64,000 nt of DNA, taken from the NCBI GenBank assembly GCA_963733795.1, contig CAVTED010000003.1:155149-219148 (forward strand), in the 5' to 3' direction. Positions 15,012-41,605 of the stretch are shown piece after piece (position 1 is the first letter of the stretch; the number at the start of each line of letters is the position of its first letter). This stretch comes from an uncultured Acidobacteriaceae bacterium (GTDB lineage: Bacteria > Acidobacteriota > Terriglobia > Terriglobales > Acidobacteriaceae). Under the pieces are notes generated by a model, which was given only the letters and a program-made list of their open reading frames with translations, searched no databases and was not told the DNA's origin. A program made the position numbers and the translations under genes.

Positions 15012-16120
15012 ATGTCTGATTCCTTACCCATGCCCGGAGGCCCAGAGCCTTCAAGCGAAGTTGTTGTTCCCTATCAGGGCGGCGTAGTCCGCGTTCCGCC
15101 TGACGCCCAAGTCGCCTCGAAAGCCGCCGCAGAATTCACCAACGCATTTCATGGATTCCAAGGCCCAGGCAGAAAAAATAACCGGCTGGACGCGCAGACC
15201 CAGTCGAATCTCGACGAACTGATCCTGCAGATGCGGCGCGACCGTCCCAAACCGGCGACCGTCGTCAACCTGCATCCCTTCGAGTTGCAATTCAACGCCG
15301 ACAACTACCTGCTGCGCGGACACACCATTCCGGCGTGCATGCCGGGGATGCCGTTCAACTACAAAGCGATTCGCGGCTGGCGGCACGATGGCGGCTCCTA
15401 CAACGAGGACGGCTCGCGAAAATTCAAACCCATCACCCCAGTCATGGTGGCGGGGGAATTCATGCGCGAGTTTAACAAGGTGGAGACCTTCGGCCCTGGC
15501 GTGCTGATCTACTTGGGCGACTCCCATCCCGACAAAACCGGAACCATTGAAACCTACGACCAGATGGGCGGCTGATCACCGAAGACAAACAGGGCTTTGA
15601 CTTCGACGAAGAAGACCGCAAGATTCCCATCCTGGTCAAGGAGCCCGTGCTCGCCAGTTTCCCGGAGATGCTGAAAAGTCTGCGGGCGGCGCGCAACAAC
15701 TTCTATCTGCAGCAGGTGCGCAAGGCGGAACGCTGGGTGAAGAAAGGCGAGAAATTCGCGCCCTTCAGCCAGGACTACCACATCGCCATGGCGCAGGTGC
15801 TGGTCTCCGAAGGAGTCATCCCGGGCGTGCCCGAAGAACTCACTGGCCTCGCCACCCGCGAACAGCGCGCGATCGCCGAGCACAACTGCCCCTCCTGCCA
15901 GCATCCGGTCAACAAAAGCGCCTACCGCTGCGAGCACTGCTCGAACATCCTCGATGCCCTGGCTGCGTTCAAGGACGGCGCCATCGAATTCGCGCACGCC
16001 AAAATCGCCCTGCTGCCCGACGAGAAATACGCCGAAGCGGAGAAGATCCACAAGCAGCGCGAGAAGCGGTCTGCGAAACGGCAGAAGCCGGGAGTAAAGA
16101 GTAAGCCGTGCTGCAGGTAA
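15012..16120 (+). pseudogene. virion structural protein candidate (about 369 aa, frame break near 15570)
   Basis: ORF 15012..15575 continues in the frame of 15647..16120. The C-terminal part has a CPSC...CEHC ribbon. Confidence 0.45.
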
Positions 16121-16838
16121 GAGACGTCATCGCCCGGGTCGCCTCCAAGTGTGACGACCCGGACCAGACCTATATCACCACGGACTACGTCGCCGGATTC
16201 CTTGACGACACGCAGGACTGGTTGTTCGGCAAGCTGCGTCTGGCCAACAACCAGTTCTCCGAAGAGGTTGTCATCCTGCCCAACGTCACCGCCGGTACGC
16301 CGACGCTCGATGCCTTTCAGGTCACTGGACAGCCGTTGGCAGCGATGTGCGAGCCGAAAACCCTGCGCTGGATACTTCCCGGGCAGTCGAACATTTACTG
16401 GCGGAAAGCCGACGGCCCTCTGGACTATCCGCGCGACCTCAATCCGGCGGACCGGCGCTTGATTCCTGGGCATGGGTCCGCAACTCGGTGCAGCTCGCGA
16501 ACTTCTCGACCAACCTCGACCTCGAAGTCACCGGCGACTTCCTCTTCGATCATCTCGCCGACCCCGACGACGCCCTGCAGATGACTCGGCTCGCCAACCG
16601 CACCCTCACCTGCAAATTAGCGTCGGAGGTGGGGAAGGCCCGGGGGAACGACAAGTGGGTGACCACCTACGGGGCGGATGCGACCGAAGCTCTGGACGAT
16701 CTGATCATCGCCCTGAGTAAGGAAAAATCAGCGCAAGACGCATCGCCTGGCCCGCATGAACCGCAGAGGTGGTTCGTCGGTGGGCGACAACGTAGTCAGC
16801 CGCTAACCGAGGAATATCACGGAATCATGATTTCGTAA
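16108..16838 (+). pseudogene. virion structural protein candidate (frame break near 16460)
   Basis: The GTG at 16108 overlaps the previous stop. ORF 16108..16584 continues in 16347..16838. Confidence 0.4.
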
Positions 16839-18153: not shown

Positions 18154-20910
18154 ATGAATTTCGACGGGTTCACAGCGCACCCAATAGAAAGGTTCAGCTC
18201 GTTGGTCGAGCAAGATGATGCGACGGTACTTCCCGCCGGGGTCTCGCCCGAAGCGCAAGACATCACCTTCCACCTGACCAGCGTGCGCACGCGCGACGGG
18301 ATTCAGTCGCAGTACGGCTTCACCCTTCCCGACGGCGGACAGGTCACCGGGCTCGATTCCGCGAAGCTCGCCGGCAACCCCGACCTGCAGGTGCCCTTCG
18401 CCTTCTCGTCTTTGGGAAACCTCTACAAGGAATTCCCTGCGGGCAGCGGCAACGTGATCCCGATATCGAGCCCGCAACTCAGCTTGCCCGCCGGGGCCAG
18501 CATGCAGTCTGCGCTGGCCTACAAAAAAGCCTTCCTGGTGTTTGGCGATCTGTTGAATTCGCTGGGTGCGCCCGCAGTGTTGAACCTCTCGACCGGAGTA
18601 CTCGACCCGCTTTCCGGCAAACCGTTCGGCGCCTCCTGGCTGGCGAACACGCAATACAACTTGGGTGAAGTCGTGACCCCGGCGAATCCGGTCGGCGGCA
18701 ACGGACACACCTATGTCTGCACACAGGCGGGAAAGAGCGGAGCCTTACAACCCGCTTTTCCGGTGCTCGAAGGCGGAACAATTGGAGACGGCGGAGCAAT
18801 CTGGACGGAAACGACGCCGTTGATGGTGCAGGCGATCCCAGCCCCTGAGCTCCGCCCGGAGGCGCGAGCCACAATCCCGGCGGCGGCGCTTTCCCGCCGG
18901 ACGAGACGTGTATTTGGTTTACACCATCGTCAATCCGCAGGGCGAATCGACCACTTCGGTCCCCATCGTCTTCGTCAACACGTCCGCGAACGACGAGATT
19001 CTCGCCAACAGCGCGAACTTTTTTAATTCCGCGGCCAATAACGCCCTGTGGTGGGCTGGGCTGGTTGAATCTACGCGCCTACCGGCTTCAACATTTACGA
19101 AGCCGACGTGCCCACCGGAAACCCAGCTCCCGCGCTGGCTGCCTACAAGAAAGTGACGGGAAGCCCGTTTGCGTTCAACGCTGCCACCGTCGTGACTGCC
19201 GCCGCTGCTGGCGCGGCGCCGCCTGTGGCCAACAGCGGCCTGGTGGTTCCCCTCGGGAATATCTGCTCCGGCCTGCGCTACATGATCGTGATGTTCATCA
19301 ACCGCAACGGCTATGTCTCGGGCGTGACCCAGGCGGCAGTCGTCTCCTATAACGGCGGCAGCAGTGGCTTCCAGCTTTACGTCCCGCATTTGCCCATCGG
19401 GCCTCCGAACACTTACGCAAGATTGTGTGGGTTTACTCCCGCCGGGCAGTTGAGCCAAACCGCGGGCTTTGGCATTTCGAGCGCGGGACCGTACTTCTGG
19501 ATTTCGCCGAATTTCCCCAGCGGCGTCTTCGACCTCACCAAGATTCCCGGCGGAGTCTCGATCGCCGACGTGGTCAATGGCGTGCAAATGACCTCGACCA
19601 TCGTCAACGACAACACCTCCACCTCGGCCACGTTCAACTTCACCGACGATTATCTGAAATTGGAGCAGAACGATCTCTCCGGCAACTTCCGCAAAATCCA
19701 GGTGCCCAACTGCTCCGATGTCTATTTCTCTCCCACCCTGCGTCGAGTCTTCTATGCCGACGACAACTTCCCCAGCGGCTGGCGCGTCTCCCTGCAGGAC
19801 GATCCCGAGTCGGTGTATGACGATTCGAGCGGCATCATCCAGGTGGCTCAGGACAACGGGGAGCGAAGGACGGCCGTCCGCGAATTCAACGGCATCGTCT
19901 ACCTAATGAAAGAGCGCTCCGGACATGTCCTGAACGCCAGCGCGGTCGACCCAAAGGACTGGGCGGCGACCAAGCAATGGGGCGGGGACAAAGACGGATC
20001 TGGGCCCTGCGGCCCGCGCGCGGTCGATACCGCCACCAATTTCATGTGCTACGTGCACCGCTCCGGGGTGTACATCTTTGAAGGCGGGCAGCCCTACCGC
20101 ATCTCGAAAGAATTGCCCATCACCTGGTCCGCGATCAACTGGGCTTACCAGCACCGCATCTGGGTCAAGATTGACGACGAGACCAGGGAAATCCGCATCG
20201 GCATCCCTTACCGGCAGTCGACCGTCCCGAACAAAGTCCTGAAACTGAATTACGAGGAACTGCCAGCGTGGTCTCCGCCCAGTTTTGCCCCTCCGGTCCA
20301 CTTCTCGCCCTATGTGGGAAAGGAAATCGCGGCGGGCGGATGCTACAAGTGGTCGGTCGACAACATCGCGGCCAACGTATGCGTTCGCGCCGAACGCAGC
20401 TTGCCACCCGTAGCCATCCCTGCATGGTTCGATCAGAAAACCGTGCAGTCCCAGATTCTCTACGGTTCCGCAAATCCGGACGGAGCCGTGTGCGCCATTA
20501 TTCCCGGCTCACTCGACGACAACGGCCAAGGGATCGATTCGGTCTATGAAACCGCCTGCCCGCCGGAAGACCCGCGCACCGGCGGAAACCTGATGCGGCC
20601 CAACCGGCTGGGCGGCGTGCAGGCCAATATCGACGGCCAGGGGCAAGGCTCGATTTACGTGCTGGCCTTGCGCGCCAAAGACCCCAAGGACGGCGAGCCG
20701 CAAAAGGCGGGACAGGCCAAAGCCACGCGCGGAGCCGAGATCAAACTCAAAAAACCCTGGATTGCCGGCATTCCTTACTCCTGCGGTGGGCAGATGACCA
20801 ACGAACGCATGCGCCTCAGGATCACCAACGACAAGCGCGCGGGATGCGGATTCGATTTGAAGTACGCCGCCATTTATGCCGTGCCCGTGACCGGCGCGCG
20901 GCCGCGATGA
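18154..20910 (+). pseudogene. large virion protein (about 920 aa; tail-tube/nozzle-size), 2-3 frame breaks between 18850 and 19110
   Basis: ORFs 18154..19026, 18908..19156 and 19108..20910 read as one protein. The call rests on its size and its position just before the tail fibre. Confidence 0.5.
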
Positions 20911-20920
20911 GATTGTCGCA

Positions 20921-22195
20921 GTGACTCTGCCCCAATTCAGAGGAGACTTCCTTAAGCTGAATCCGCGCCTGGCGCAGTGGAGCGACCAGCTTGAGCAAAG
21001 ACTGCAGAGCCTCGAACAGCAGGTGGGCGGCGTGCCTGCCGGGTTCGTCGACGATCCCTCGCAAGTCAACCAGGGCGTAGTACCTCCGCCTGCAGCAAGT
21101 TTTTCGGTGACTGGCATCGACGGCAAATTCATTGTGCTGGTGTCGAACCCCGAAACGGTAATCCCCCAAAGCGTCCTGCAATCAAGGCTGCGCTTCCAGG
21201 CAGGAACAAACCTGCGCGGGACAGCGATTCTGCACAACCTGCAATCGGCGACAGATTTGAACTTCAATCAGTCGTCGAATTTGAAAGACTACGGAACGTC
21301 CTCGCAGTTGCTGTGGACCGACCAGGACCCGAACGTCACCCGCTTTTTCCGGCTGCGATCTTCCTTCGATGGCGTGACCTGGAACGCCTGGCAGATTTTT
21401 TCGAGCACCATCACTTGCGGCCCGGAGGGAGTGTGGTCGGGCATCCTTCGGTCGGCGGCGCTCACGCAAGTGAACGCTTCGGCAACGCCCACCACCAAGC
21501 CTCTGACGGCGGCAACCGGAGTGGCGCCGAACAACGCCACCATCAGCATCGCCGCGTTTCAGGTGCAGTATCCGAATTCCGTCTCACCCGCGACGAACGG
21601 ACTGGTTTCCTACAACAGCGGAGCGGTGACAGGTTTGCTGGATTCGACGATGTACTTCGTCTACTGCCTCGATCCGAAATACGCCGGAGGGGCGCAGACG
21701 TATCTGGCGACAACCGACCAGACGTTGATCACCTCGCAAGACTATCTGGTGTACCTAGGAAACATCACGACGCCGGCGCACGGCGGAGGGGGAACCAGCG
21801 GTGGCGGCGGAGGGACTGGCCCTCCGGGCGGAAATTGTTTCACCGGAAATACTCTGGTCATTACCCGCGACGGACTGAAGCCCATTGCGGCCGTGATTGC
21901 GAAACAGGATCGGGTGCTCACGCAAAGAGGCTGGAGAACGGTTCGCACTCTGCGCGAACACTGCGACTTCTCCGGGCCAATGTGCGATATGGGCCACGAC
22001 GAGCTGGTCACCTTCCCGCACCGCTTCTGGTGGCGGCTAGGGTGGGTGCGGGCAGATCTTCTTTTCCTGGAACTTCCTCGACGGCACTTCAAGGGTTCCG
22101 TATTCAACCTCGAAGTCGAGGGTGACGGCTCCGACGAAGAACAGTGCTACGTACTGGCCAACGGCTGGATCCCGCACAACTTTCAGAAAATCTAA
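20921..22195 (+). CDS. tail-fibre-like protein with C-terminal Hint (intein-like) domain
   Basis: Intact 424-aa ORF. It has an N-terminal coiled-coil segment, a Gly-rich linker (HGGGGTSGGGGGTGPPGGN), then CFTGNTLVITRDG... and ends ...YVLANGWIPHN-FQKI. Confidence 0.65.
   Translation: MTLPQFRGDFLKLNPRLAQWSDQLEQRLQSLEQQVGGVPAGFVDDPSQVNQGVVPPPAASFSVTGIDGKFIVLVSNPETVIPQSVLQSRLRFQAGTNLRGTAILHNLQSATDLNFNQSSNLKDYGTSSQLLWTDQDPNVTRFFRLRSSFDGVTWNAWQIFSSTITCGPEGVWSGILRSAALTQVNASATPTTKPLTAATGVAPNNATISIAAFQVQYPNSVSPATNGLVSYNSGAVTGLLDSTMYFVYCLDPKYAGGAQTYLATTDQTLITSQDYLVYLGNITTPAHGGGGTSGGGGGTGPPGGNCFTGNTLVITRDGLKPIAAVIAKQDRVLTQRGWRTVRTLREHCDFSGPMCDMGHDELVTFPHRFWWRLGWVRADLLFLELPRRHFKGSVFNLEVEGDGSDEEQCYVLANGWIPHNFQKI
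21836..22180 (+). other. Hint / bacterial-intein-like domain (Cys306 to His419-Asn420)
   Basis: The N-terminal block is C-F-x-G-x-T-x-V and the C-terminal block ends in HN. There is no endonuclease insert, and the +1 residue is Phe. Confidence 0.6.
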
Positions 22196-22196
22196 G

Positions 22197-22451
22197 ATGG
22201 CGCATTCCGCTTCCATTGTTCGCGTGCACGAACCTGCGGACGGGATTCTCGCGGTAACTGTCCGGTGCTGCGGAGATCCCAAGACAGACTCCGTTCTGAG
22301 CATCCATGCTCTGCACCGGGAAGATGCGGAAATCCTAAAAGACATTCAGGCGCACAAGGCTCGGGTAGAGCACTTGCATGCTCACAAAGCGCGCGCGAAA
22401 GAGTTGATGAGTACGATCGGCGCGAGCGTCGAGGACTGCGGATGCCCGTAA
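22197..22451 (+). CDS. hypothetical phage protein
   Basis: The ATG at 22197 lies 2 nt after the fibre stop, in frame with track ORF 22122..22451 (84 aa). Confidence 0.45.
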   Translation: MAHSASIVRVHEPADGILAVTVRCCGDPKTDSVLSIHALHREDAEILKDIQAHKARVEHLHAHKARAKELMSTIGASVEDCGCP

Positions 22452-22903
22452 CCTGGCGCGACGCCACGCACGCCGACCTGCCGCGAATTCACGAACTGTG
22501 GGATGAACAGGAGTCGCGCTTTGACGGCACTGGCATTCCTGTTGACCGGCCTCAACTGCTGTATCCAGTGGAAGAGAAGGGTCATTTCTTTTATCCGTAC
22601 TTTCCTCCAGTCGTGAGGGTGCGAGTGGCAGAGCGCGAAGGCGTCATCGTGATGTGGAAGTATCAAGAGCTAGTTCCCGAAACCTGCATCGTCGGCAGCG
22701 ACAAAGAAGCAATGGAGTCCATCGGGAATGAACTCACGGCCGACGCGCACTGGGCGAAGTCGAAGGGCTTTCGTTCGGGATGGGGCCTGATCCCCGCCAA
22801 ATTTATCAGCGTCTTTGCACGCTTTCTACGCAATCACAAGCACATCCGTCCGTGGAAATCCCTCACTCCGGTCGGCATCAATTTTAAGGAACTCGGGGAC
22901 TAA
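22442..22903 (+). CDS. hypothetical phage protein
   Basis: The ATG at 22442 overlaps the previous gene, in frame with 22265..22903 (153 aa). Confidence 0.45.
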   Translation: MPVTWRDATHADLPRIHELWDEQESRFDGTGIPVDRPQLLYPVEEKGHFFYPYFPPVVRVRVAEREGVIVMWKYQELVPETCIVGSDKEAMESIGNELTADAHWAKSKGFRSGWGLIPAKFISVFARFLRNHKHIRPWKSLTPVGINFKELGD

Positions 22904-22907
22904 TCCC

Positions 22908-23498
22908 ATGGGCCGCAGTCAATCCGCACAGATTTCCCAGCAGAGCGAGCAGAACGCCCAGCAGAATCAGGGCAACGCGCAAGCCGCGCTGGGCTCGACC
23001 AATGCCGCGCTCACGAAATATTCCTCCGATGTCCAGAACTTCATGAAGTTTGGCCGCCAGACCTACGGGGCGAACGGCACCTACATGAAGGATCAGAACG
23101 CCATCGCCACCACGGGAGCTGCGGCGGGCTCGAACGCGATCAAAGGCAACTTGGCGCTGCATTCCCTTGCGACAGGTGAAAATACCGGGGGCTACGCCGG
23201 CAGCGTGGCGGAATCGCAGCGGCAGGCGCAGAGAGACCTGACCGGCACGATGGCCAACGCCGACGCCACCCGCTTACAGAATCTCACCGCGATCAACCAG
23301 CAAGGCGTGCAGGATTCCGCGTTACCGGCGCAGGTGCAGGCGAGTCTGTACGGAACTTCGCTGGGTGGATCGAATTCGGCCATGGGAACGGCGGAAAGCG
23401 CGTCGGCCGCTTCGCCGGGATTCTTTGATGTATTCGGGCAGGATTTGGCCAGTGGCGCGGGCGCGGCGCTCGGAGCCTACGCGGCGAAGAAGGCGTAA
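22908..23498 (+). CDS. Gln/Ala/Gly-rich internal-virion-like protein
   Basis: The ATG at 22908 is in frame with 22815..23498 (196 aa). The call rests on low-complexity composition and position after the fibre. Confidence 0.45.
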   Translation: MGRSQSAQISQQSEQNAQQNQGNAQAALGSTNAALTKYSSDVQNFMKFGRQTYGANGTYMKDQNAIATTGAAAGSNAIKGNLALHSLATGENTGGYAGSVAESQRQAQRDLTGTMANADATRLQNLTAINQQGVQDSALPAQVQASLYGTSLGGSNSAMGTAESASAASPGFFDVFGQDLASGAGAALGAYAAKKA

Positions 23499-23502
23499 AT
23501 AA

Positions 23503-24660
23503 ATGGCAGACGAAGAACTCGACGGACTTACCGGCGCAGGATCGGTCGGATCGGAAGAAGAAGATCCGCTTGAACGCCTGAGTATCGGCCAGCGCATTGC
23601 GGGCGTGAAAGACCCTGCCGCGGCTCCGCCGTCCGACCCGGCTCCGCCGATGCCCAAGGTTGCATTAGATCCCAACAGCATTCCAGAGAGCATTCGTCCG
23701 CGCCCCATGGCTCCGCAGCAAATTCCGCAACCGCCATCCCCAAGTCAGAATTCCGCACTCGTTCCCCTCATCCAGCAGCAGGCCCAACTTTCGAAGCCGA
23801 TCAATCCCATGGACGAGACCACGGGAAAGATCAAGCCGCAGTACCGCATGGGGATAGGACAAAGGACTCTCGGCACTGCCGCCAACTTCCTGCAGGGATT
23901 TGGGCGCAAGCCGTTTACTCCAGTTCCGGTCGGCCCTGGCGCTACCAATTGGAGATTTGGGCGGGAAGAAGCGCAGCGCGAAAAACAACTGGAGGGAGTG
24001 AACCAGCAGATCGGCACGCAGGAAAAACTCAACGACGAAAACGAGAAGCTCTACCGCGACGCCACGCGGCAAGCCTATGAAGGCCAACTAGGCGAAGCCC
24101 GGAAGCAGACTGCTGAGGCCCAAGAATCGAAGGCCGACACTGCCAGTAAGGTTGCAGATGTCAAGGCACTGGCGACAAAGAATCAATTCGAAGAAGCTAA
24201 GGCGAAACTCGAAGAAACGGCTCGTCGCAACGACCAGCTTATGAAGATAGGCCAGGGCAACCTGGAATTAAAGCAGCAACTCGGCCAAATGGCGCTCGAT
24301 CTCAGACAGCAGCAACTTGAGAACGAAAAGCAGAAATTTACCTCCGGACTGGATGCGAAGTCTCTTGAGGCTGAGCGCAAAGGGCGCCTCGATGCCATCG
24401 AAAAGCGATATCACGATCATCCCTACAAGACGATGTTCGACGATAAAGATGCGGAAATCAAAACTGTAAATGAGGATATCGATAGACGCCTGCAGCAAGT
24501 TGGCGTAGGCGCAGCCAAGCCGGGAACAGCGCCGACGAAAACTCCAGCTCCGCAAACCCACGCGTGGTCCCGCAGTGCATGGCAGAAGGCCAACCCCAAA
24601 GGCGATGTAAAGGCGGCAGAAAAGCAGGCTCGCGCTCAAGGCTTCGAGGTCGGCAACTAG
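23503..24660 (+). CDS. coiled-coil internal-virion-like protein
   Basis: Intact 385-aa ORF with a long charged heptad-like region (aa about 160-330). Confidence 0.5.
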   Translation: MADEELDGLTGAGSVGSEEEDPLERLSIGQRIAGVKDPAAAPPSDPAPPMPKVALDPNSIPESIRPRPMAPQQIPQPPSPSQNSALVPLIQQQAQLSKPINPMDETTGKIKPQYRMGIGQRTLGTAANFLQGFGRKPFTPVPVGPGATNWRFGREEAQREKQLEGVNQQIGTQEKLNDENEKLYRDATRQAYEGQLGEARKQTAEAQESKADTASKVADVKALATKNQFEEAKAKLEETARRNDQLMKIGQGNLELKQQLGQMALDLRQQQLENEKQKFTSGLDAKSLEAERKGRLDAIEKRYHDHPYKTMFDDKDAEIKTVNEDIDRRLQQVGVGAAKPGTAPTKTPAPQTHAWSRSAWQKANPKGDVKAAEKQARAQGFEVGN

Positions 24661-24672
24661 CGATTCGTTCGT

Positions 24673-27600
24673 ATGGATACCGACAGCAACGATTCAAGTA
24701 TCGGCCTCGGCGGTCTCACTCCGGGCGCGGCTCCGGCAACTGCCTCCAACCTTAGCCGCGCCGAGATCGCCGATTACCTTAACCGTGCGAATTGGGATCC
24801 AGCAAAAGCAGAGGCGCTGGCCACACATGAACGCCTGTCGAACCTTGGCGTCCATCCTGCCGTAGCCGCACGAGTCGCAGTCGCAGCCGCCCAACCAACG
24901 CTGCCTGCGGTATCCGATGCCTCGCAAGTAAGTCCTAACCAATCTCCATCTCCCGCAGCGCCCACTCCACAACCACGCTCCCCCCAGTCCCTCGCTGCTC
25001 CGGCCCAGCCCGCACCGCAAGCCAATGCGCCGACAGTAAGGCCAGCAATCGCGCCAGTCCGACGGCCCACGCCAGCACCACGGCCATCGTCTGCCCCGAT
25101 CGATCTCTCGGCGGGATTTGTGCCGAAGGCCAGCGCTCCGAAAGCGGCAGCGAAACCAGGCGAGATCGATTTGTCGGCAGGATTTGTTCCGAAAGACGCG
25201 GCGACACCAAGCGAACCGGCGCAGCCAGGACTTCTTGAGCGGACATACGAAACCTCCGGAATCAAAGGTCTGGTCGATGCCGCCGAAGCTAAGACCGACG
25301 CCGACCACCAAGTCGCGAACGAGATTCGCGATCACATCAAGGCTGGACGATGGGGCGACGCCACCAAGACACTTCTCAAACAGATCGGCGGGGCCGCGCT
25401 GGAAGGAGCAAAAGGTCCAGGCGGCGACTTTTTGGAAAGCGTTGGGAAAAGCACATACCAGCATGGAAAACAGGCCGTTGACGCGGTGCGGCGCGGCGAT
25501 ACCAAAGAGGCGATCGCGCAGGGAGCCGAGGCGGTTCCAGTGGTAGGCCAAGTAGGGGCTCAAATAGCCAAACCACTCGCGCAGGACATTGCCGATAAAA
25601 ACTGGTCAGGAGTCGCGGGAGATGTGCGCAGGAGGATTCCGGCAATCTTGAGCACGGCCAAGATGGCAGGAGAAGGACTTAAGTCTCCCAGTGAAGCTGC
25701 TGAAACCGCCATTCCGAAAGACCCCGTTGTGGCTGGAACCGAACTTCCTCGCACTGTAGGTCAAGCCGCATCCGAAGCCAATCCGGCGGGGCTTGGGGCG
25801 GACGTAAAGGGCATCGAAGATGTAGCGCGTCGCATCCCTGGCAGCGGCAGATTGCGCGAGATCAGCACAAAACAACAAGCAGGAGCGCGTCAGATTTTGA
25901 CCGACAAAGCGCGCACAGCCGTCCCAGGAGAGGCTGTCGAAGCCTCGAACGCCCCGGAATCTATAGAGCAGAATGCAGCCAATGCCGCCGAATCAGCTCG
26001 GCAGGCTGGCTCTGCGAAGTACCAGGAACTCGCCAAAGCCGCCGCAGATGCGGAGTTTGATAAGCCGGTAGAAGCGGCACACTCAATTCTCCAAGACGAA
26101 AACATTTCAAAAGTACTACCCAAGAGCGCGCGGGATGCTCTGAACAAAGTCGCATCCGGATTGACTGGTCGCGAAGAGATTTCACAACAGATATATGGGA
26201 GACCATTCGCCGATCTTGATGCAGCAAAGCAAGTAGAGGTAGGTAAGGCGATGACGACCGGTCCCCGTCCGGCTGACCCGTTCGCAGACATCATAAAAGC
26301 ACGGTCAGAGATTGGGGATGCTGCCAATGGGATGAAAGACGCAGCAGATCGCTTCCAGGCACACAAGGCACTTGACCAGTTCGACCAGGCAATAAGCGAT
26401 GCCCTGAATGAGCACGACATCAAAGCCGGGACGAATTTGTCCCAGACACTCTCCCAAGCAAAACAGCTCTGGTCTCAAAAATATGCTTTCGAACAATTCC
26501 GCGACGGACTGCAGGACATTATGCGCGAGCAGCCGCATACAGGAAACCGCCAAATCAACGGAGCCGCTTTCCAGAAGCTGATCAATGATCTCGACCCGCG
26601 GGCCGCGAAAGGGAAGACACCGCTACAGCGGATGTTCCCTGACGATCCGCAATCCGTGAAAGACCTCCACGACCTCGGGGACTTCATCGGGGAAGAATCA
26701 AGCGCAGGCGGGCGGGATGGCGAGCAGCATGGCGAAACTGCGAATTCTAGGATTGAAGGAAAGCGCGCTAGCGCTCATCGCCAACAACTTAGGGTTTTCT
26801 TATCTACTGTCAAAGCCAGGGCTGGCACGCGCGCTCCTAAGCGCACTGACGGCAGGGAAAAATGTTGTCAAAGCGAGTGCGGCGATCGGGGCGATCAATC
26901 ATGCTGCGGGAGACTTTCCGCGTGGGCGATCTAGCAAGTCATCGAAGGCCGACTTATTGCCAAACAGCCAGGAGAGCGCGGCCCAAGCCCAAGCGAACAC
27001 CAACACAATCCCGACAATTAGTCGACCGACAACCACTACGGCAACCACAGCGACCACAAAAAACAGCACCACACCGGCGGCGAATTTGAAGCCGAATTCC
27101 ACGGCCCAAGACTCTATCCCATCCGCTGCGTCTTCGCAAGCGGATCAAACTCCCAAGGGTTTTCAACGCCCCGAGATGCAGCAGCACAAGATGGCAGGAA
27201 TGCGGGCAGCAGCCGCGTCATCCAATACCCCTGACCACCTAAAAGAGCATCTTGCCAAACTGACATTCCCTCAAAAGGGAGATCAAGTCACGATGGCCAA
27301 CGGGCGTTCGGGCAAGGTTGAATTCGCCGATGCGAAACTTCGAGTGGTCCGCGTGCGCACGCCAGACGGCAAAGTCTATCGTCTCACTAAAAATAATGAG
27401 ATCGAAAAGCTCCAGGCGGAGCCGAAATACAAACACGGTTCTACCCAGGCCGCGATCCCGAAGGGTTCTCATGCCAGCTTTGGACTGGATCTCGCTCGCA
27501 GACGGATCGACTATCGCGATGTGGCTGGCGACGGAAAAGAGGTGGGCGGGGACCATGTGACTGTTAAATACGGAATCAAAGGCGACGATGTCGAGGGCAT

Positions 27601-27944
27601 CAAGAAATACCTGGCATCACTCGCTCCCTTCGACGCCACTTTGGGTAAAACAGAAAAGTTCCCGCCGACGGAACACTCCGACGGCGCTGCGGTGATCCAC
27701 GCGCCAGTGATATCTCCGGAACTGGAACGGATCAATCGCGAGATCGAAAAGCACGGAGAATTCGCACCCTCAAACTTCCCTGACTATCGTCCTCACGCAA
27801 CCGTGGCGTATGTGAAGCCAGAAAAAGCGGACAAGTACGTCGGCATGAAAGTGACCGACGAAGAAGTTCCGCGTGAGCGAGATCGCCATCACGGACAAAA
27901 ACGGCAAACAGCAAGTGGTGAAGTTAGGGGGGGCAACTGGATGA
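24673..27944 (+). pseudogene. giant internal-virion/ejection-like protein (about 1090 aa) with C-terminal 2H phosphoesterase domain; frame breaks near 26700 and 27865
   Basis: ORF 24673..26934 continues in the 26717 frame after a Thr-rich linker. The last about 25 codons (KKFRVSEIAITDKNGKQQVVKLGGATG*) are in a third frame. The 2H part may instead be a separate gene starting near 27180. Confidence 0.45.
27422..27944 (+). other. 2H phosphoesterase (LigT/cyclic-phosphodiesterase-like) domain
   Basis: Two H-x-T-x motifs lie 80 aa apart: GDHVTVKYG (His codon at 27554) and RPHATVAYV (His codon at 27794). Confidence 0.6.
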
Positions 27945-28222
27945 CGGTCAAGCAGCGCAAACTGGGCGCCCAGTACCGCAAGCTAAGGAAAAAGCGCCAG
28001 CAGTTGGCGACCAGAATCAAGTGCCTGGAATGTCTCGAACTGAAGAAGCTGGCAAAGCGTTATAAGGTGCGGCGTCGCTATTTTGCCGTAGCTTCCCATG
28101 GCAATGTCATGGGACAATGCGCCCATGACGAGTCAGACCCGAACCTTCATCGAATTCGGCGATTTGATTGCGCTGCATTTGGAGTGCAAGAAGTGCGGCT
28201 CCTCGCTCCTTGTGAGTGTTAG
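27941..28222 (+). CDS. small basic hypothetical protein (3' part doubtful)
   Basis: The ATG overlaps the stop of the 2H frame (gATGa): MTVKQRKLGAQYRKLRKKRQQL... The last about 40 codons overlap the better-looking ORF 28098..28439. Confidence 0.3.
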   Translation: MTVKQRKLGAQYRKLRKKRQQLATRIKCLECLELKKLAKRYKVRRRYFAVASHGNVMGQCAHDESDPNLHRIRRFDCAAFGVQEVRLLAPCEC

Positions 28223-28876: not shown

Positions 28877-29368
28877 CTATGCGGATACATTTTGCCTACT
28901 TTCGACAAGGCGCTCGCCGCCGAACTTGATTGCTATCGCCACGCAAAACTCTACGAACTCATCGTGAGTCAGTGCGTTTTTCACAAAATTGATCTGCATG
29001 TCTACCCATTGCAGGTTAGGTAAATCATTGTTACCTCCGCGCGAGGTTGGTATTTTGTGATCCAAGCTCGCATTGACACCCGGCATCAAACGCTTTCCGG
29101 TGTAGACGCAAAGCCCACCTTGCTGCTCGAACAGCTCACGTATAGCAGCTCCGTTTTTCAGTGAGCCAGTTCGATCTTTGGCGATACACCGAAACCAGCA
29201 ATCAGTACAGATTTTACTATTCTGGCGGACGGATGGTGCGTCTACTCCGCAGCGCATGCACACACCAGCATCTCTTCTCGTGTCCAGCGTGAGCCTCGTG
29301 TAGAAGCGTTTTCGTTCCGCCACTGATAGGTGAGCGATCTCGGGATATTTACGTCGTTTGTCAGGCAT
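28877..29368 (-). CDS. HNH endonuclease
   Basis: LDHKIPTSRGGNNDLPNLQWVDMQINFVKN is the HNH signature, with upstream C..C pairs. The start is taken at the ATG at 29368 inside track ORF 28877..29476. Confidence 0.75.
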   Translation of the reverse strand: MPDKRRKYPEIAHLSVAERKRFYTRLTLDTRRDAGVCMRCGVDAPSVRQNSKICTDCWFRCIAKDRTGSLKNGAAIRELFEQQGGLCVYTGKRLMPGVNASLDHKIPTSRGGNNDLPNLQWVDMQINFVKNALTHDEFVEFCVAIAIKFGGERLVESRQNVSA

Positions 29369-29472
29369 AAAGTTGCGTCGTCGCCATTTCGGGGGAGGTG
29401 GTGACGGTGCTCTGCAGAGGGAGTCGGAGTCGGCGCAACACCGGCGGCTCCGACCCTCTGCCAGAATTGGGA

Positions 29473-30531
29473 TCACGCTCTCCGCAAGTGCCGAACCGCG
29501 CGGCGACAGATTCGCGGCACTGCGACAGAACTTAAATCAACTTCAGGTTGTGGTGGCACGATCGGCTGCCGCTCCAGAACGTTAACGGCCTCTTGCTTTG
29601 CCCGTATCCGGATATGGGAGTAGCGCTCCAGCATCTGCCGGGAGACATGCCCAGCCAGTTCAATGACGGTGCGTTCGCTGACGGATTCGTTCTCCAGCAA
29701 CTTGGTAATCGCGTGGTGTCTCAAATCGTAAATTCGCAGCGTCGGCAATTCTGCCTTGATGCGCAGCTTGTCCCAACTTCCTCGCGAACTCGATATCGGT
29801 CTGCTCGGGTCAAAGCCCTTGGCCCCGTTGCGTGCGCGGTGGGGGAGGAAGTAGTCCTCGGGCCGGGTCGCTCCCAGTTCGTGGGCCCGCTTCACCAGTT
29901 GTTGCACTGCCCACGCCGCTACTTGAGACTTTCAAGGGGATTGTTCAGTTGTCGATATTCGTTCTTCACTCCCTCCTCAATGTGAATGGCGGGCGGCAAA
30001 GTATTGAGATCGATGTTCCGGAGTCGCAGGTGGCGGATTTCGCTGGGTCCGGCCGTGGTGTTGGCGGTGATCAGGGCGCAGCAGTAGGCAATTTTCCAAG
30101 CGGGGATTGGAACTGGCGATACGAAACAAGCGACGCTCTTCCTCTGGGCTCAGGGCTCGTCCCGCTTTGGGGCGTGGCAATTTCAGAGGGTCATAATGAT
30201 CCTTAATCGAAGCCCACAGCCCAACCCGATCAAGAATCTGCGAGAGCGTATTCAATTCGTGGTTGATCAAACTCGGTCCGGCTCGTCTCATCCCTGCGGT
30301 TCCAGCCCTTCTATGCTTCTGATACTCCTCGAAGTGGGTGGCGCGAATGTCGCTCAGCCGGACAAGACGAAAGACTGGCATCAGGGCTCGGATGCAATTC
30401 CGATAGTGCCGCAACGTCCCGGTTCCTATGTGGCGCTGATGGATACTGAGCCAGAGCGGGGCTGCCTCCGAGAACGTCATCGTTCTGGTTGGTTCACAAA
30501 CCGCCTGGATAGGAACAAACGAAGACGTCAT
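29473..30531 (-). pseudogene. int: tyrosine integrase, paralogue of 40218..41191, at least 3 frame breaks
   Basis: The N-terminal ORF is 29977..30531, the middle frame reads IAYCCALITANTTAGPSEIRHLRLRNIDL..GVKNEY, and the C-terminal ORF is 29473..29907 with YDLRHHAITKL...LAGHVSRQMLERYSH (HxxR, H, Y). Confidence 0.85.
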
Positions 30532-33963: not shown

Positions 33964-34272
33964 ATGAACCAGATCGGGCAGCTTCTTAACGACGCATTTA
34001 TTGGTGGCGTATTCATTGGGGCAGTTCTGCTGGGGTTCTTGATCGGCGTTGTGATCGGGTGGAAGCTCCGTGGTGAACCTGTGATCAATCCGACTGACCC
34101 ACGCACGCGGCCCAGCGATTACCCCGTTAGCAATGCGGGATTCGGACCCGACTATCCCTTCAACGAGCGCCCGTTTCCGGAACGAAGTAATAAAAGTTTG
34201 GCTAGTTCCTCACAATTTGCCCGCGCCCACGCGGATGCCCAGAAGGCCGTCCTTCCTCCCTTCCGTCCTTAG
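33964..34272 (+). CDS. small membrane protein (one TM; holin-size)
   Basis: The ATG at 33964 is in frame with 33835..34272. The TM segment is FIGGVFIGAVLLGFLIGVVIGW. An ATGA overlap links it to a 37-codon upstream ORF (33854..33967). Confidence 0.45.
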   Translation: MNQIGQLLNDAFIGGVFIGAVLLGFLIGVVIGWKLRGEPVINPTDPRTRPSDYPVSNAGFGPDYPFNERPFPERSNKSLASSSQFARAHADAQKAVLPPFRP

Positions 34273-34564
34273 GTCCGAATCCTCCGCAACCGGAAGGAGC
34301 CCAGCCGAAACCGCATCCCCTCGCCAGCGCGACATCCTCGGCGAGATGACTCACGCCGCTGCCCTAGCCCGGCACGTCGAACAAGCCTCCGCCCGCATTG
34401 TGCAAGGACTCCCGGCGAATCCGAACCGCCACCCCGGAGCAGACCTTCGGCAACGTGCTCGATGTAGTGCACACCGGGAGCCCTGCAGCCGCCATTGCCG
34501 CGCACCCGAAGAAGAACGCTCGCGGCTGATTTCCGAAGCGCAGGATTCGGCCACCCAGTGGATC

Positions 34565-39898: not shown

Positions 39899-40067
39899 CT
39901 CCTCCCTTCGTCGTCCTCGCGCTCCCGCAATTCTGCACACTCCTCTGGTAAGGCTTCGTTCCCGGGGCTTCTTTACCCCTTGCGCCTCAACTTACTTCTG
40001 TAGCAGAATTTAGCCTCTTAGCGGCGGCCTTTCCCCATCCTGCCGCCGCTCGGCCCTAAGCCCACAT

Positions 40068-40086
40068 TTGTTCGGTTTTCGTAACA
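40068..40086 (+). repeat. 19-bp direct repeat copy 2 (TTGTTCGGTTTTCGTAACA)
   Basis: See copy 1; it lies 130 nt upstream of the integrase ATG. Confidence 0.8.
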
Positions 40087-40217
40087 GCGGAGAGGCCCGT
40101 GCGCAAGAAGTCTCTGTCTGTTGTACAAACCGCAGCACCGTTCCCCGCGCGGCCAAAGGCCTCCCCCACTCCCCTGGGCATATCGATTGCCCATCTTGTG
40201 AACGCTCGCGCGCGCGG

Positions 40218-41191
40218 ATGCTCGAACCTCAGGCCCTGTCTACTCTCCGGTTTCCCGAAGCTGCGGAGGTATGGTTTCACTCCCATACCTTGCACGTGGA
40301 ACCAGGAACCGTCCGCCACTACACCAACTGCATTCGCGCGCTCACCAAATTCTTTGCCCAGTTGCGCCTCGACCAAGTTCACATCGGCCACTTCGAGCAG
40401 TACCAGCGCATGCGCTCCGCGGGCGACGGGCTGCGGAAGGCGGGACCGAGTTTGATCAACCACGAACTGAACACGCTCTCGCAGATCCTGACGCGGGCCA
40501 ACCTGTGGGCGCCGCTGGCCGCCAACTACAAACCCCTGCGCCTGCCGCGGCCCACGGTCGGCTGCGCCATTCCGGAAGAGGATGAGCGACGCCTCTTCCG
40601 CGCCGCCGAGTCCAACCCCCGCTGGAAGATTGCCTACTGCTCGCGCTGATCACCGCCAACACGACGGCGGGACCGAGCGAAATCCGCCATTTGACCATGG
40701 GCGACGTTGACCTGGCCACGCCGGCGATCCGCATTCTCGAAGGCGTGAAGAACGAATACCGGAGAAGGACCATTCCACTGAATCAGCCGGCGGCCTGGGC
40801 CGTGAAGGAACTGGTCAAGCGCGCGAAGGAGATGGGCGCGGTCGAGCCGCAGCACTACCTGCTGCCGCACCGGGCGAGAAACGGGGAGACGGGATTCGAC
40901 GTGACGCGGCCGATCTCGAGCTGGAAGGGAAGCTGGAACCGGCTGCGGATCGCCGCCGGGATGCCGCATTTGCGCCGGTACGACCTGCGACACCATGCCA
41001 TCACCAAACTCCTCGAGGACGAGAACGTCAGCGAGCGCACCGTGATCGAACTGGCCGGGCACGTCTCCCGGCAGATGCTGGAGCGTTACTCCCATATCCG
41101 CATGCGGACCAAGCGGGAAGCGGTCGACGCCTTGGCGAAGAAGGGATCGCGGAACGTCGGAGGGGCGAATCTGGTGTTGATCAAAAAATGA
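40218..41191 (+). pseudogene. int: tyrosine integrase (single 1-nt frame break near 40640; possibly functional if that is a sequencing error)
   Basis: The ATG at 40218 is in frame with 40068..40649, and the sequence continues in 40691..41191. Catalytic motifs are YDLRHHAITKL, LAGHVSRQMLERYSH. Reading through the break gives ..RWKIAYCCALITANTTAGPSEIRHL... Confidence 0.85.
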
Positions 41192-41316
41192 CCCCTGTGA
41201 ATTCCCTCTGCAAAACCTTTCGGGCTGCGCTAGAATCGCCGCAACAGACGCGGGTTTTGTCGTGATCCAACTTTACACTTGACTCGTGTCCGCTCTTGGC
41301 AGACAATCCTTTCGCA

Positions 41317-41493
41317 ATGGCGACCAAGACTTTACCCAGAGTGACCGTCCGGCTGAAAGATGAGGATGAAAAGTACGTGGAAGCCCTGTGTGCGCATTAC
41401 GGTGAGGGCATCGCCACCATCTTCCGGCTGGGCCTTCGTGCTCTGGCAGCAAAGGAAAAGTTGAAAGTCGCCGTTAATCCCGTCCGTTCCTAG
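41317..41493 (+). CDS. ribbon-helix-helix (CopG-like) DNA-binding protein
   Basis: TLPRVTVRLKDEDEKYVEALCAHYGEGIATIFRLGLRAL fits a beta-strand plus two helices. It lies between int and the tRNA and is a candidate excisionase or regulator. Confidence 0.55.
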   Translation: MATKTLPRVTVRLKDEDEKYVEALCAHYGEGIATIFRLGLRALAAKEKLKVAVNPVRS

Positions 41494-41529
41494 CCTGGTT
41501 TCCCTTAGAGCAGTAGCTTGAGTCGCTGC

Positions 41530-41605
41530 GGGCCTATAGCTCAACGGTTAGAGCAGCAGACTCATAATCTGTTGGTTCCAGGTTCAAATCCTGGTGGGCC
41601 CACCA
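41530..41605 (+). tRNA. tRNA with CAU anticodon (elongator Met, or Ile2 if lysidine-modified), CCA encoded
   Basis: Manual fold: acceptor GGGCCTA/TGGGCCC, D stem GCTC/GAGC, anticodon stem GCAGA/TCTGT with loop CTCATAA, T stem CCAGG/CCTGG with loop TTCAAAT, discriminator A, CCA; 76 nt. The G1-C72 pair excludes an initiator. Confidence 0.9.

What the first reader, a model, noticed from the sequence alone, without database searches (positions are those of the whole stretch)
24673..27944. 2H phosphoesterase domain at the C-terminus of a giant internal-virion-like protein (possible injected anti-signalling enzyme)
Codons around 27554 (GDHVTVKYG) and 27794 (RPHATVAYV) give two H-x-T-x motifs 80 aa apart. 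That is the hallmark of the 2H (LigT/cyclic phosphodiesterase) superfamily. The domain follows a Thr-rich linker at the end of an about 1090-aa protein in the position of T7-type ejection proteins.

Some phage 2H-fold enzymes, such as Acb1, are known to destroy cyclic-oligonucleotide immune signals. A virion-delivered copy would act before any phage transcription. That link is inference only. The domain could equally be a separate gene starting near 27180, or an RNA-repair or tRNA-repair enzyme. Two frame breaks (near 26700 and 27865) complicate the model.
Basis: partly seen in the sequence, partly recalled or inferred. Interest (0 to 1): 0.7.

Follow-up and report, generated by a model that had tools for sequence, protein, structure and literature searches.

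The report
2H phosphoesterase on phage cargo protein
A prophage in an Acidobacteria genome encodes a roughly 1,090-residue probable internal-virion protein ending in a genuine 2H phosphoesterase domain, a type already predicted in the literature to be injected with phage DNA against host defences; the carrier protein is undescribed, and this copy is interrupted by two frameshifts.

Summary
After two +1 frame corrections (26692 and about 27860-27866), 24673..27944 reads as one 1089-1090 aa protein. Its last ~175 residues are a 2H phosphoesterase. Pfam PF13563 scores 43.6 bits against a cut-off of 27. HVTV and HATV sit 80 aa apart on the two central strands of a confident model. Every significant Foldseek PDB hit but the trypanosomatid mitoribosome chains is a named 2H enzyme.

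The fusion does not depend on the corrections. The end of the core, the linker and most of the 2H domain share one frame.

The carrier is an orphan all-helical family, with 13 proteins found among 5.8 billion. It is the last gene of a podovirus-like structural module, so an ejection-protein role rests on synteny only.

The 2H domain belongs to a large clade found mostly inside 1,000-5,000 aa polyvalent proteins. One is gp321 of the cultured Tunturiibacter phage Tunturi_5. Iyer et al. (2017, 2022) already predicted that head-packaged 2H domains are injected to degrade nucleotide signals. The domain does not meet the Acb1 threshold.

The prophage carries at least 9 frameshifts while the host genes checked carry none, so this copy may be dead or badly assembled.

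Verdict: a new carrier variant of a known, predicted but untested kind.

The parts
24673..27944 (+). Whole gene: carrier plus effector protein, 1089-1090 aa after two frame corrections.
   Evidence: ORFs 24673..26934 and 26717..28222 overlap in frames 1 and 2. Homologues P0001, P0003 and P0005 read straight through both junctions.
24748..24876 (+). Short conserved N-terminal segment (NLSRAEIADYLNRANWDP...), shared only with P0001 and P0005.
   Evidence: tblastn shows 70-72% identity over 36-37 aa.
25099..25200 (+). Two tandem copies of the peptide IDLSAGFVPK (25099-25134 and 25165-25200).
   Evidence: Equivalent paired peptides open most family members and about half of the giant proteins that carry this 2H clade.
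25222..26911 (+). All-alpha core of the orphan carrier family (aa 184-746).
   Evidence: 13 homologues, none with a Pfam domain in this part. Model of P0003 is all helical, with pLDDT 80-90 over residues 260-545. No significant PHROG, PDB or INPHARED match.
26689..26692 (+). Frame break 1: GGGG where the reading frame needs GGG.
   Evidence: Homologues read DF[MI]GKNQ continuously.
26996..27157 (+). Thr/Pro/Ser-rich low-complexity linker.
   Evidence: Read directly from the sequence. A similar linker with a TPAAN.KPN motif occurs in P0005 and P0006.
27158..27262 (+). Conserved peptide module 'M' (GFQRPE..HK..TPDHLKEHL).
   Evidence: TP.HL[KR].HL is found in only P0001, P0005, P0015 and P0028 among the 167 proteins fetched. 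Its position relative to the 2H domain differs between relatives.
27275..27415 (+). Small beta module 'B' (KGDQVTMANGRSGKVEF..VRVRTPDGKVYRL).
   Evidence: Shared with P0001, P0014 and P0015. Modelled as two short strands plus a helix at low pLDDT (59-65) at the N-terminus of P0014.
27419..27944 (+). 2H phosphoesterase domain.
   Evidence: PF13563 at 43.6 bits. Model and fold hits. Clade profile search.
27554..27565 (+). First catalytic motif, H-V-T-V.
   Evidence: Lies on strand E73-80 of the model.
27794..27805 (+). Second catalytic motif, H-A-T-V. His and Thr are invariant in the alignment.
27860..27866 (+). Frame break 2, just before the last beta-strands of the 2H domain.
   Evidence: P0014 reads TDGKKFRV where the window has gac-g-aag-aag-ttc.
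16108..16835 (+). Context: head-to-tail adaptor homologue, itself frameshifted.
   Evidence: Matches the L001 231-aa protein. That protein aligns end to end with the L004 protein carrying Pfam SU10_adaptor, E=6e-16.
18154..20910 (+). Context: large tail protein (931 aa in L001, 1172 aa in L004), split in the window.
   Evidence: Weak sub-threshold CBM_5_12 and head-decoration matches.
22448..24660 (+). Context: three small-to-medium genes directly upstream, conserved in order in L001, L004 and L005. They are positional analogues of podovirus internal proteins.
   Evidence: None has a family match.
40014..41605 (+). Context: frameshifted integrase followed by tRNA-Met, marking the right end of the prophage.

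Best explanation
The gene encodes a cargo or ejection-type internal virion protein of a short-tailed temperate phage, integrated next to tRNA-Met in an Acidobacteriaceae genome.

Proposed layout:
- The N-terminal paired peptides and the ~560-aa helical core are the part that gets packaged into the head and expelled with the DNA.
- A flexible Thr/Pro-rich linker and two small modules follow.
- A C-terminal 2H phosphoesterase is the payload.

Proposed action: the 2H domain is delivered into the cell at the moment of DNA entry, before any phage gene is expressed. It uses its two His-x-Thr motifs to hydrolyse phosphodiester or cyclic-phosphate bonds of host nucleotide molecules. The most likely targets are cyclic-oligonucleotide or 2'-5'-linked immune second messengers from CBASS, type III CRISPR or similar systems. 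This would blunt abortive-infection signalling.

What is shown: the domain identity, the fusion, the position in the structural module, and membership of the 2H clade that lives in polyvalent proteins.

What is inferred: packaging, ejection and substrate.

In this particular genome the copy carries two frameshifts. It may therefore be inactive, or the sequence may be wrong at those points.
For: 2H identity:
- PF13563 at 43.6 bits against a cut-off of 27.
- Confident model with both HxTx motifs on central strands.
- The significant PDB fold hits are named 2H enzymes, apart from mitoribosome chains I did not check.

Fusion:
- One frame runs from 26693 to 27865.
- The same architecture occurs in P0005.

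Structural-module position:
- Order is adaptor homologue, large tail protein, four small or medium proteins, then this gene. This order is conserved in L001, L004 and L005.
- No gene in that module matched any Pfam or PHROG family, so none was recognised as a tail-tube or tape-measure gene.

Clade:
- The profile search found 5010 representatives (634 at E<=1e-30).
- Of the 144 newly found proteins among the best 150 hits, 84 are >=1000 aa and 61 are >=2000 aa.
- Partner domains are typical of polyvalent proteins: ddrB-ParB, ART-PolyVal, GGDEF, RelA_SpoT, a methylase-helicase pair and SprT-like.

Cultured example:
- Tunturi_5 gp321 carries the same clade (44% identity). It lies between the head-tail connector and the minor tail and tail terminator genes.

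Other annotated examples:
- BFVD fold hits include 2H domains inside proteins annotated as capsid morphogenesis or structural proteins of Microbacterium and Gordonia phages.

Literature:
- The same mechanism is predicted for 2H domains fused to MuF, portal or polyvalent proteins (PMC5512222 section 20; PMC9503650 section 3.4.5).
- An ejection protein acting against CBASS has precedent in ICP3 Gp15 (bioRxiv 10.1101/2025.07.23.666291).

No RNA ligase or kinase partner was seen among the neighbours scanned.
Against: - No homology of the carrier to any proven virion or ejection protein. Foldseek hits against viral models are weak (E about 1e-4, TM below 0.25) and mostly to unnamed proteins.
- There are no virion proteomics for any relative.
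- The substrate cannot be read from sequence. Acb1 scores below its threshold, and the fold matches Usb1, CPDase and LigT equally well.
- The 2H module can be a separate gene (L005) or sit apart from the structural genes (L006), so packaging is not obligatory for its function.
- Only 2 of 13 carrier homologues carry the domain.
- P0001 sits in a bacterial chromosome without a recognisable prophage around it.
- As assembled, the window copy is truncated. The core ORF ends out of frame, and the 2H domain loses its last strands.
Confidence: 0.5

Rival explanations
1. The domain is still delivered with the virion but acts on RNA. Either it is a Usb1-like 3'-5' RNase that damages host RNAs, or it opens 2',3'-cyclic phosphate ends left by host anticodon nucleases.
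For: - Usb1 and plant CPDase are among the best fold hits (E about 1e-5, TM about 0.6), as good as Acb1.
- PF13563 and TIGR02258 (RNA 2',3'-cyclic phosphodiesterase) are the sequence models that respond. TIGR02258 does so only weakly, at 20 bits against a cut-off of 65.7.
- Iyer et al. 2017 list an RNase role as their first alternative.
Against: - No RNA ligase, kinase or Tpt1 partner was seen in the neighbourhood.
- The paper reports that this version of 2H never associates with RNA ligases.
- 10 of 12 clade members also respond to the Acb1 model.
Confidence: 0.2
2. The carrier is not packaged or ejected. It could be a tape-measure-like or other late protein, or a cytoplasmic scaffold. In that case the 2H domain acts only after late expression, like an ordinary phage-encoded phosphodiesterase.
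For: - No detectable homology to known ejection proteins.
- The 2H module exists as a free-standing gene in L005 and L006.
- Tape-measure proteins appear among the very weak fold hits.
Against: - The gene is the last of the structural block. It is not followed by baseplate or distal-tail genes, and no tail tube or chaperone pair precedes it.
- An enzyme made only late in infection would be too late to stop signalling. The clade's strong bias to giant proteins in virion modules argues for packaging.
Confidence: 0.15
3. Whatever the family does, this genomic copy is a pseudogene in a decaying prophage and has no current function. This explanation is not exclusive of the others.
For: - At least 9 frameshifts in about 28 kb of prophage when compared with intact L001 proteins. 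Both integrases are affected.
- Host genes at 50.4-57.4 kb are collinear with orthologues at 80-95% identity and show no frame change.
- MraW and an acyltransferase match their Pfam models end to end.
- Most of the breaks are not in long homopolymers.
Against: - All disruptions seen are indels. There are no clear nonsense mutations, no deletions and no loss of synteny, which fits consensus errors of a long-read metagenome assembly.
- Independent assemblies of relatives (P0008, P0010, P0022) show the same kind of frame garbling. P0010's out-of-frame stretch ends close to the same KNQ..AGGMAS site.
- Break 1 is in a G-run.
Confidence: 0.45

Closest known systems
2H phosphoesterase domains of polyvalent proteins and of MuF/portal fusions (Iyer, Burroughs, Anand, de Souza, Aravind 2017, PMC5512222; Iyer et al. 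2022, PMC9503650)
   Same: - Same 2H clade. A profile built from this domain retrieves mainly 1-5 kaa proteins with ddrB-ParB, ART-PolyVal, GGDEF, RelA_SpoT and methylase-helicase partners.
- Encoded among virion genes.
- Same predicted logic: packaged, injected, and acting against nucleotide signals or as an RNase.
   Different: - The carrier here has no MuF, portal or LPD domain, and no second recognisable enzymatic domain.
- It is an orphan helical family found only in 13 metagenomic proteins.
Tunturiibacter phage Tunturi_5 gp321 (PP885688.1 261501-265589; deposited as 'MutT/NUDIX hydrolase')
   Same: - Its host belongs to the same bacterial family, Acidobacteriaceae.
- Its 2H domain is 44% identical over 97% of the query.
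- The gene lies in the structural module.
   Different: - It comes from a jumbo myovirus.
- The protein is a classic polyvalent protein: SprT-like peptidase, 2H, three ART-PolyVal stretches and GNAT.
- It has no carrier core like the one here and no N-terminal paired peptides.
Acb1 anti-CBASS nuclease (Pfam PF23474; solved phage FBB1 structure 7t26; Hobbs et al. 2022, PMC9117128)
   Same: - 2H fold with two HxT motifs.
- Phage-encoded.
- Foldseek E=2.8e-5 and TM 0.61 relative to 7t26.
- 10 of 12 clade members respond to the Acb1 model.
   Different: - The window domain scores 23-24 bits against a gathering cut-off of 27.
- Acb1 models are small proteins (137-165 residues in the solved structures and 144 Pfam positions), not a C-terminal domain of a structural-module protein.
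- The fold is no closer to Acb1 than to CPDase or Usb1.
Podovirus ejection proteins (T7 gp14/gp15/gp16; P22 gp7/gp20/gp16), including enzyme-bearing ones and ICP3 Gp15, which inhibits the CBASS effector CapV
   Same: - Position after the adaptor and tail genes.
- A run of proteins of rising size ending in a large helical protein.
- An enzymatic add-on at one end.
- Precedent for anti-CBASS action by an ejection protein.
   Different: - No sequence or fold similarity detected.
- ICP3 Gp15 acts stoichiometrically on the effector, not enzymatically on the signal.
- No transglycosylase domain here.
LigT/ThpR RNA 2',3'-cyclic phosphodiesterase (TIGR02258, PF02834)
   Same: 2H fold and motifs; LigT structures appear among the fold hits.
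   Different: - TIGR02258 scores 20 bits against a cut-off of 65.7.
- PF02834 scores 16.5 bits against 23.3.
- There is no RNA-repair gene context.

Membership tests
2H phosphoesterase superfamily | Two H-x-[TS]-x motifs, one per lobe | tested here: met
   HVTV at aa 961 and HATV at aa 1041. The second His and Thr are invariant in the alignment, and the first motif is conserved wherever sequences cover it.
2H phosphoesterase superfamily | Significant match to a superfamily profile | tested here: met
   PF13563 at 43.6 bits against a cut-off of 27. All 12 aligned relatives match.
2H phosphoesterase superfamily | Bilobed alpha+beta fold with the two motifs on central strands | tested here: met
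   Model of the 82%-identical proxy P0014 has pLDDT 87.6, with the motifs on strands E73-80 and E153-159. The PDB hits at E<=1e-3 are named 2H enzymes, apart from three mitoribosome chains not checked.
2H phosphoesterase superfamily | Phosphodiesterase or cyclic phosphodiesterase activity | not testable with these tools
   Needs enzymology.
Acb1 (anti-CBASS nuclease, PF23474) | Score at or above the family gathering threshold | tested here: not met
   23.3-24.3 bits against 27 for the window domain. Some clade members pass, for example P0137 at 31.3 bits.
Acb1 (anti-CBASS nuclease, PF23474) | Fold specifically closest to Acb1 structures | tested here: inconclusive
   7t26 ranks 7th at E=2.8e-5, behind CPDase and Usb1 at similar scores.
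Acb1 (anti-CBASS nuclease, PF23474) | Hydrolysis of 3'3'-cGAMP and other cyclic oligonucleotides | not testable with these tools
   Needs enzymology.
Polyvalent proteins (Iyer et al. 2017) | Two or more domains of disparate biochemical activity in one polypeptide | tested here: not met
   Only one recognisable enzymatic domain; the rest has no family match.
Polyvalent proteins (Iyer et al. 2017) | Carries a domain version characteristic of polyvalent proteins | tested here: met
   The clade profile retrieves mostly 1-5 kaa proteins with ddrB-ParB, ART-PolyVal, GGDEF, RelA_SpoT and methylase-helicase partners.
Polyvalent proteins (Iyer et al. 2017) | Encoded among virion or packaging genes, or fused to MuF or portal | tested here: inconclusive
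   The gene lies in the structural module downstream of an adaptor homologue, but no MuF, portal or LPD domain was found.
T7-type ejection / internal virion proteins | Sequence or structural homology to gp14, gp15, gp16 or equivalents | tested here: not met
   No significant Pfam, PHROG or PDB-sequence match to any virion or ejection protein. Foldseek against viral models gave only weak hits, mostly unnamed.
T7-type ejection / internal virion proteins | Gene position after adaptor and tail genes in a short-tailed phage module | tested here: met
   The order is conserved in the window, L001, L004 and L005.
T7-type ejection / internal virion proteins | Present in virions and expelled into the host | not testable with these tools
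   Needs proteomics and infection assays.
LigT/ThpR RNA 2',3'-cyclic phosphodiesterase | Equivalog-level match (TIGR02258) | tested here: not met
   20.4 bits against a cut-off of 65.7, measured on the proxy P0014.

The most novel reading that the evidence does not exclude
The paired short N-terminal peptides are a shared head-packaging or ejection signal. They consist of two or three near-identical 8-14 aa copies separated by 10-25 residues. They occur in this carrier family and in about half of the giant proteins that carry the same 2H clade.

On this reading, the orphan carrier here is the minimal, single-payload member of a very large class of injected effector carriers. Its 2H payload would destroy immune nucleotide signals before the first phage gene is transcribed.
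Probability: 0.2. Interest if true: 0.6.

Novelty: new variant of a known kind. Interest (0 to 1): 0.35.

Why it matters
Pre-packaged enzymes would let a phage disarm signalling-based immunity (CBASS, type III CRISPR, Pycsar and similar systems) before transcription begins. This has been predicted from genomics since 2017, and my searches of the held paper library found no experimental test.

This locus adds a new, simple carrier: one scaffold and one payload. The payload module appears fused, split off as an adjacent gene, or absent in close relatives. That pattern is what one expects of an exchangeable cargo.

The locus is a poor experimental entry point. Its host is uncultured, the family is rare and this copy is frameshifted.

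The same 2H clade in gp321 of Tunturi_5 is a testable system, because that phage has a culturable Acidobacteria host. So are the actinophage structural-protein fusions seen among the viral fold hits.

Tried and rejected
Searches that gave nothing useful:
- PHROG and Pfam scans of about 40 neighbouring ORFs, plus the intact L001 orthologues. The only returns were a weak head-decoration/CBM match.
- tblastn of the carrier core against 50,697 phage records: no match.
- Carrier alignment against GTDB species genomes and IMG/VR: no relatives. JGI metagenomes gave one 44-aa fragment.
- Profile searches against PDB sequences. For the 2H domain the only relevant hit was Acb1 at E=0.83. For the core only spurious mTOR hits appeared.
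- Foldseek of the core model against viral models: too weak to name a family.
- NCBIfam: nothing above cut-off.
- Context look-up for P0013: not on record.

Ideas rejected:
- Tape-measure protein. No tail-tube, chaperone or distal-tail genes were recognised around the gene.
- Membrane-spanning segment in the conserved hydrophobic stretch. The highest 19-residue hydropathy is 1.2.
- Programmed frameshifting. The same kind of break occurs in at least 9 unrelated genes.
- A separate 2H gene in this window. There is no stop codon between core and domain.
- Assigning the 929-aa neighbour of P0001 to the phage. It has no match in the window or the related loci, and from its sequence alone it looks like a secreted host protein.

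A GC3 frame plot was uninformative.
Full report
**1. The observation**

The region holds two overlapping + strand ORFs: 24673..26934 in frame 1 and 26717..28222 in frame 2.

Three-frame translation and the DNA show where the sense reading moves.
- It moves from frame 1 to frame 2 at a GGGG run at 26689-26692.
- It moves from frame 2 to frame 3 at 27860-27866.

Homologues read straight through both points.
- Across the first they read DF[MI]GKNQ..AGGMAS.
- Across the second, the 82%-identical P0014 reads TDGKKFRV where the window has gac-g-aag-aag-ttc. The second break is therefore most simply a 2-nt loss in a Gly codon.

With both corrections the product is 1089-1090 aa and stops at 27942-27944.

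**2. Is it a 2H domain?**

Yes.
- Pfam PF13563 (2_5_RNA_ligase2) scores 43.6 bits against a gathering cut-off of 27.
- PHROG 755 scores E=1e-7.
- The tool would not accept the frame-corrected chimera, so I modelled P0014 with 11 aligned relatives. Mean pLDDT was 87.6, and both HxTx motifs open central beta-strands.
- Foldseek against the PDB returned 37 hits at E<=1e-3. Apart from three trypanosomatid mitoribosome chains that I did not check, they are named 2H enzymes: plant CPDase, Usb1, Acb1 (7t26), LigT, AKAP18, ASCC1 and a Burkholderia phage phosphodiesterase.

No sub-family stands out.
- Acb1 (PF23474) scores 23-24 bits, below its cut-off of 27.
- TIGR02258 scores 20 bits against 65.7.

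**3. Fusion or separate gene?**

The end of the carrier core, the linker, two small modules and the 2H domain up to residue 1064 lie in one open frame (26693-27865). The fusion therefore does not depend on any correction.

Relatives show several arrangements.
- P0005 (1045 aa, on a 42-kb contig) has the same core-linker-2H arrangement.
- In L005 the module is a separate 292-aa gene. It starts at the residue equivalent to window aa 829 and overlaps the core gene's stop in a TAATG.
- In L006 the 2H gene stands further from the structural genes.
- P0001 has the two small modules without 2H.
- Nine other homologues end in a different short tail.

The payload is therefore exchangeable. The order of the peptide module (TP.HL.PHL), the small beta module and 2H differs between the window, P0005 and P0015.

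**4. What is the carrier?**

It is an orphan family.
- A search of 5.8 billion proteins found 13 relatives. None has a Pfam domain in the core.
- There is nothing in INPHARED phages, GTDB species genomes or IMG/VR, and one fragment in JGI metagenomes.
- A model of P0003 is entirely helical, with confident residues 260-545.
- Fold matches to viral models are weak (E about 1e-4, TM below 0.25) and mostly unnamed. A few carry LT_GEWL or polyvalent-associated annotations, and one is a Myxococcus phage Mx8 virion protein.
- No transmembrane-like segment is present.

Position is the only positive evidence for a virion role.
- The window is collinear with L001, L004 and L005.
- The protein in L004 that hits Pfam SU10_adaptor aligns end to end with the L001 231-aa protein (E=6e-16). 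That protein corresponds to window 16108-16835.
- The gene order is adaptor, a 126-aa protein, a 931-aa tail protein, four proteins of 153-409 aa, then the carrier. Non-structural genes follow.
- No gene in the module matched any family, so none was recognised as a tail tube or tape measure.
- This resembles the layout of short-tailed phages, where internal or ejection proteins of rising size follow the tail genes. That comparison rests on established knowledge of T7 and P22, not on a test made here.

**5. The 2H clade**

A profile of the domain, searched against 1.84 billion representatives, found 5010 proteins at E<=1e-3 and 634 at E<=1e-30.

Among the best 150 hits, 144 were newly found proteins. 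Their median length is 1578 aa. Of these, 84 are >=1000 aa and 61 are >=2000 aa, with the domain internal.

Pfam scans of ten of these large proteins show partners typical of polyvalent proteins:
- ddrB-ParB
- ART-PolyVal
- GGDEF
- RelA_SpoT
- His_Phos_1
- an Eco57I-type methylase with an SNF2-like helicase
- SprT-like
- GNAT

The only strong hit in annotated phages is gp321 of Tunturiibacter phage Tunturi_5.
- It is a cultured jumbo phage of Acidobacteriaceae.
- The protein is 1362 aa and its 2H domain is 44% identical to the window's.
- The gene lies between the head-tail connector and the minor tail, tail terminator and sheath genes.
- It is deposited as 'MutT/NUDIX hydrolase'.

BFVD fold hits also include 2H domains inside proteins annotated as capsid morphogenesis or structural proteins of Microbacterium and Gordonia phages.

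**6. What is already known**

- Iyer et al. 2017 describe 2H domains in polyvalent proteins and in MuF/portal fusions. They note that these never associate with RNA ligases, and propose that they act as RNases or degrade nucleotides made by nucleotide-activated defence systems (PMC5512222 section 20).
- Iyer et al. [quoted passage not shown]
- My searches of the held library found no experimental test of this.
- A 2025 preprint shows that a T7-type ejection protein (ICP3 Gp15) blocks the CBASS effector CapV, without degrading the signal.

What is new here is the carrier.

**7. State of this copy**

Host and prophage boundaries:
- The host is an Acidobacteriaceae-like bacterium. Its MraW is 84-85% identical to proteins of MAGs of that family.
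- The prophage ends at an integrase followed by tRNA-Met at 41530-41605.

Frameshift distribution:
- Measured against intact L001 proteins, at least nine window genes change frame. These include the adaptor, a possible capsid gene (assigned by size and position only), both integrases and the target gene twice. Most breaks are outside long homopolymers.
- Host genes at 50.4-57.4 kb are collinear with orthologues at 80-95% identity, with no frame change.
- MraW and an acyltransferase match their Pfam models end to end.
- Other host ORFs of 387-832 aa are intact.

Interpretation:
- The contrast favours real decay of the prophage.
- However, every disruption is an indel. There are no clear nonsense mutations, deletions or loss of synteny.
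- Independent metagenome assemblies of relatives show similar frame garbling (P0008, P0010, P0022). This favours consensus error.
- I cannot decide between the two and put real inactivation at about 0.45.

**8. Verdict**

The 2H domain and the fusion are certain. A virion-cargo role is plausible from synteny and from the clade's habits. The substrate is unknown. Acb1 membership is not met.
- The most likely mechanism is a head-packaged, ejected carrier delivering a 2H phosphodiesterase against nucleotide second messengers (confidence 0.5). An RNA-directed role is the main functional rival (0.2).
- It is a new carrier variant of a known, predicted, untested kind, and of moderate interest (0.35).
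- The better experimental handles are Tunturi_5 gp321 and the actinophage fusions.

Noticed in passing
window 25099-25134 and 25165-25200; proteins P0002-P0013, P0025-P0158: Two or three near-identical short peptides (8-14 aa, 10-25 aa apart) open the carrier family and many giant proteins that carry the same 2H clade. Examples are IDLSAGFVPK x2 here, DPFAALGFQPD x3 in P0086 and FSDVPDGYKVLPP x2 in P0041. Of 117 large proteins, 58 have a 9-mer pair with >=6/9 identities in the first 130 residues. The control region gives 10/117 and shuffles give 6/117. The polyvalent-protein paper has none of the repeat-related terms I searched for. This may be a packaging or targeting signal.
   Followed up: partly
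window about 13.6-41.2 kb against 45-64 kb: At least nine frameshifts fall in prophage genes (near 13.86-13.92 kb, 15557, 16445, 17050, 26692, 27862, 29.92-29.98 kb, 36874 and 40.6 kb). None was found in host genes checked against orthologues (50.4-57.4 kb). All disruptions are indels. This is either a decaying prophage or locally poor consensus.
   Followed up: partly
window 21640-22195 (C-terminal ~130 aa of ORF 20921..22195): This tail-module protein is 424 aa, against 174 aa for its L001 orthologue. The extra part is a Gly-rich linker followed by a segment that starts CFTGNTLVI, contains TFPH and ends PHN. By eye it looks like a Hint or bacterial intein-like domain. No Pfam, NCBIfam or PDB-sequence match supports this.
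   Followed up: partly
window about 28.0-34.0 kb: Compared with L001, an extra block sits between the carrier gene and the rest of the prophage. It holds a 199-aa ORF on the - strand (28877-29476) that looks HNH-like by eye (no Pfam match) and a second, frameshifted integrase (29473-30531, - strand). It may be a second mobile element inserted in the prophage.
   Followed up: no
L004 5234-6454 and 12132-13658: A related phage has a BCS1-type AAA ATPase gene inside its structural module. It also has a 508-aa protein with a weak RelA_SpoT hit directly after the carrier gene. That protein matches window 34085-35263 only weakly (33% identity over 85 aa, E 2e-6). It may be another nucleotide-signalling effector.
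   Followed up: no
L088 (PP885688.1 261501-265589): Tunturi_5 gp321 is deposited as 'MutT/NUDIX hydrolase'. Pfam finds no NUDIX domain. It finds SprT-like, 2H, three ART-PolyVal stretches and GNAT. It is a polyvalent protein in the virion module of a cultured Acidobacteria phage.
   Followed up: yes
L002 10001-12820 (P0001): The closest full-length homologue (49% identity, no 2H domain) sits in a 973-kb bacterial contig among housekeeping genes and two resolvase genes, with no recognisable prophage around it. It may be a remnant of a deleted prophage end.
   Followed up: partly
window 27158-27415; P0001, P0005, P0015, P0028: A conserved peptide module (GF..(E)HK..G[WM].AA..TP.HL[KR].HL) and a small beta module (..VRVRTPDG..Y..) travel with the 2H domain but in different orders: M-B-2H here, 2H-M in P0005, M-2H-B in P0015 and M-B alone in P0001. 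Their function is unknown.
   Followed up: no
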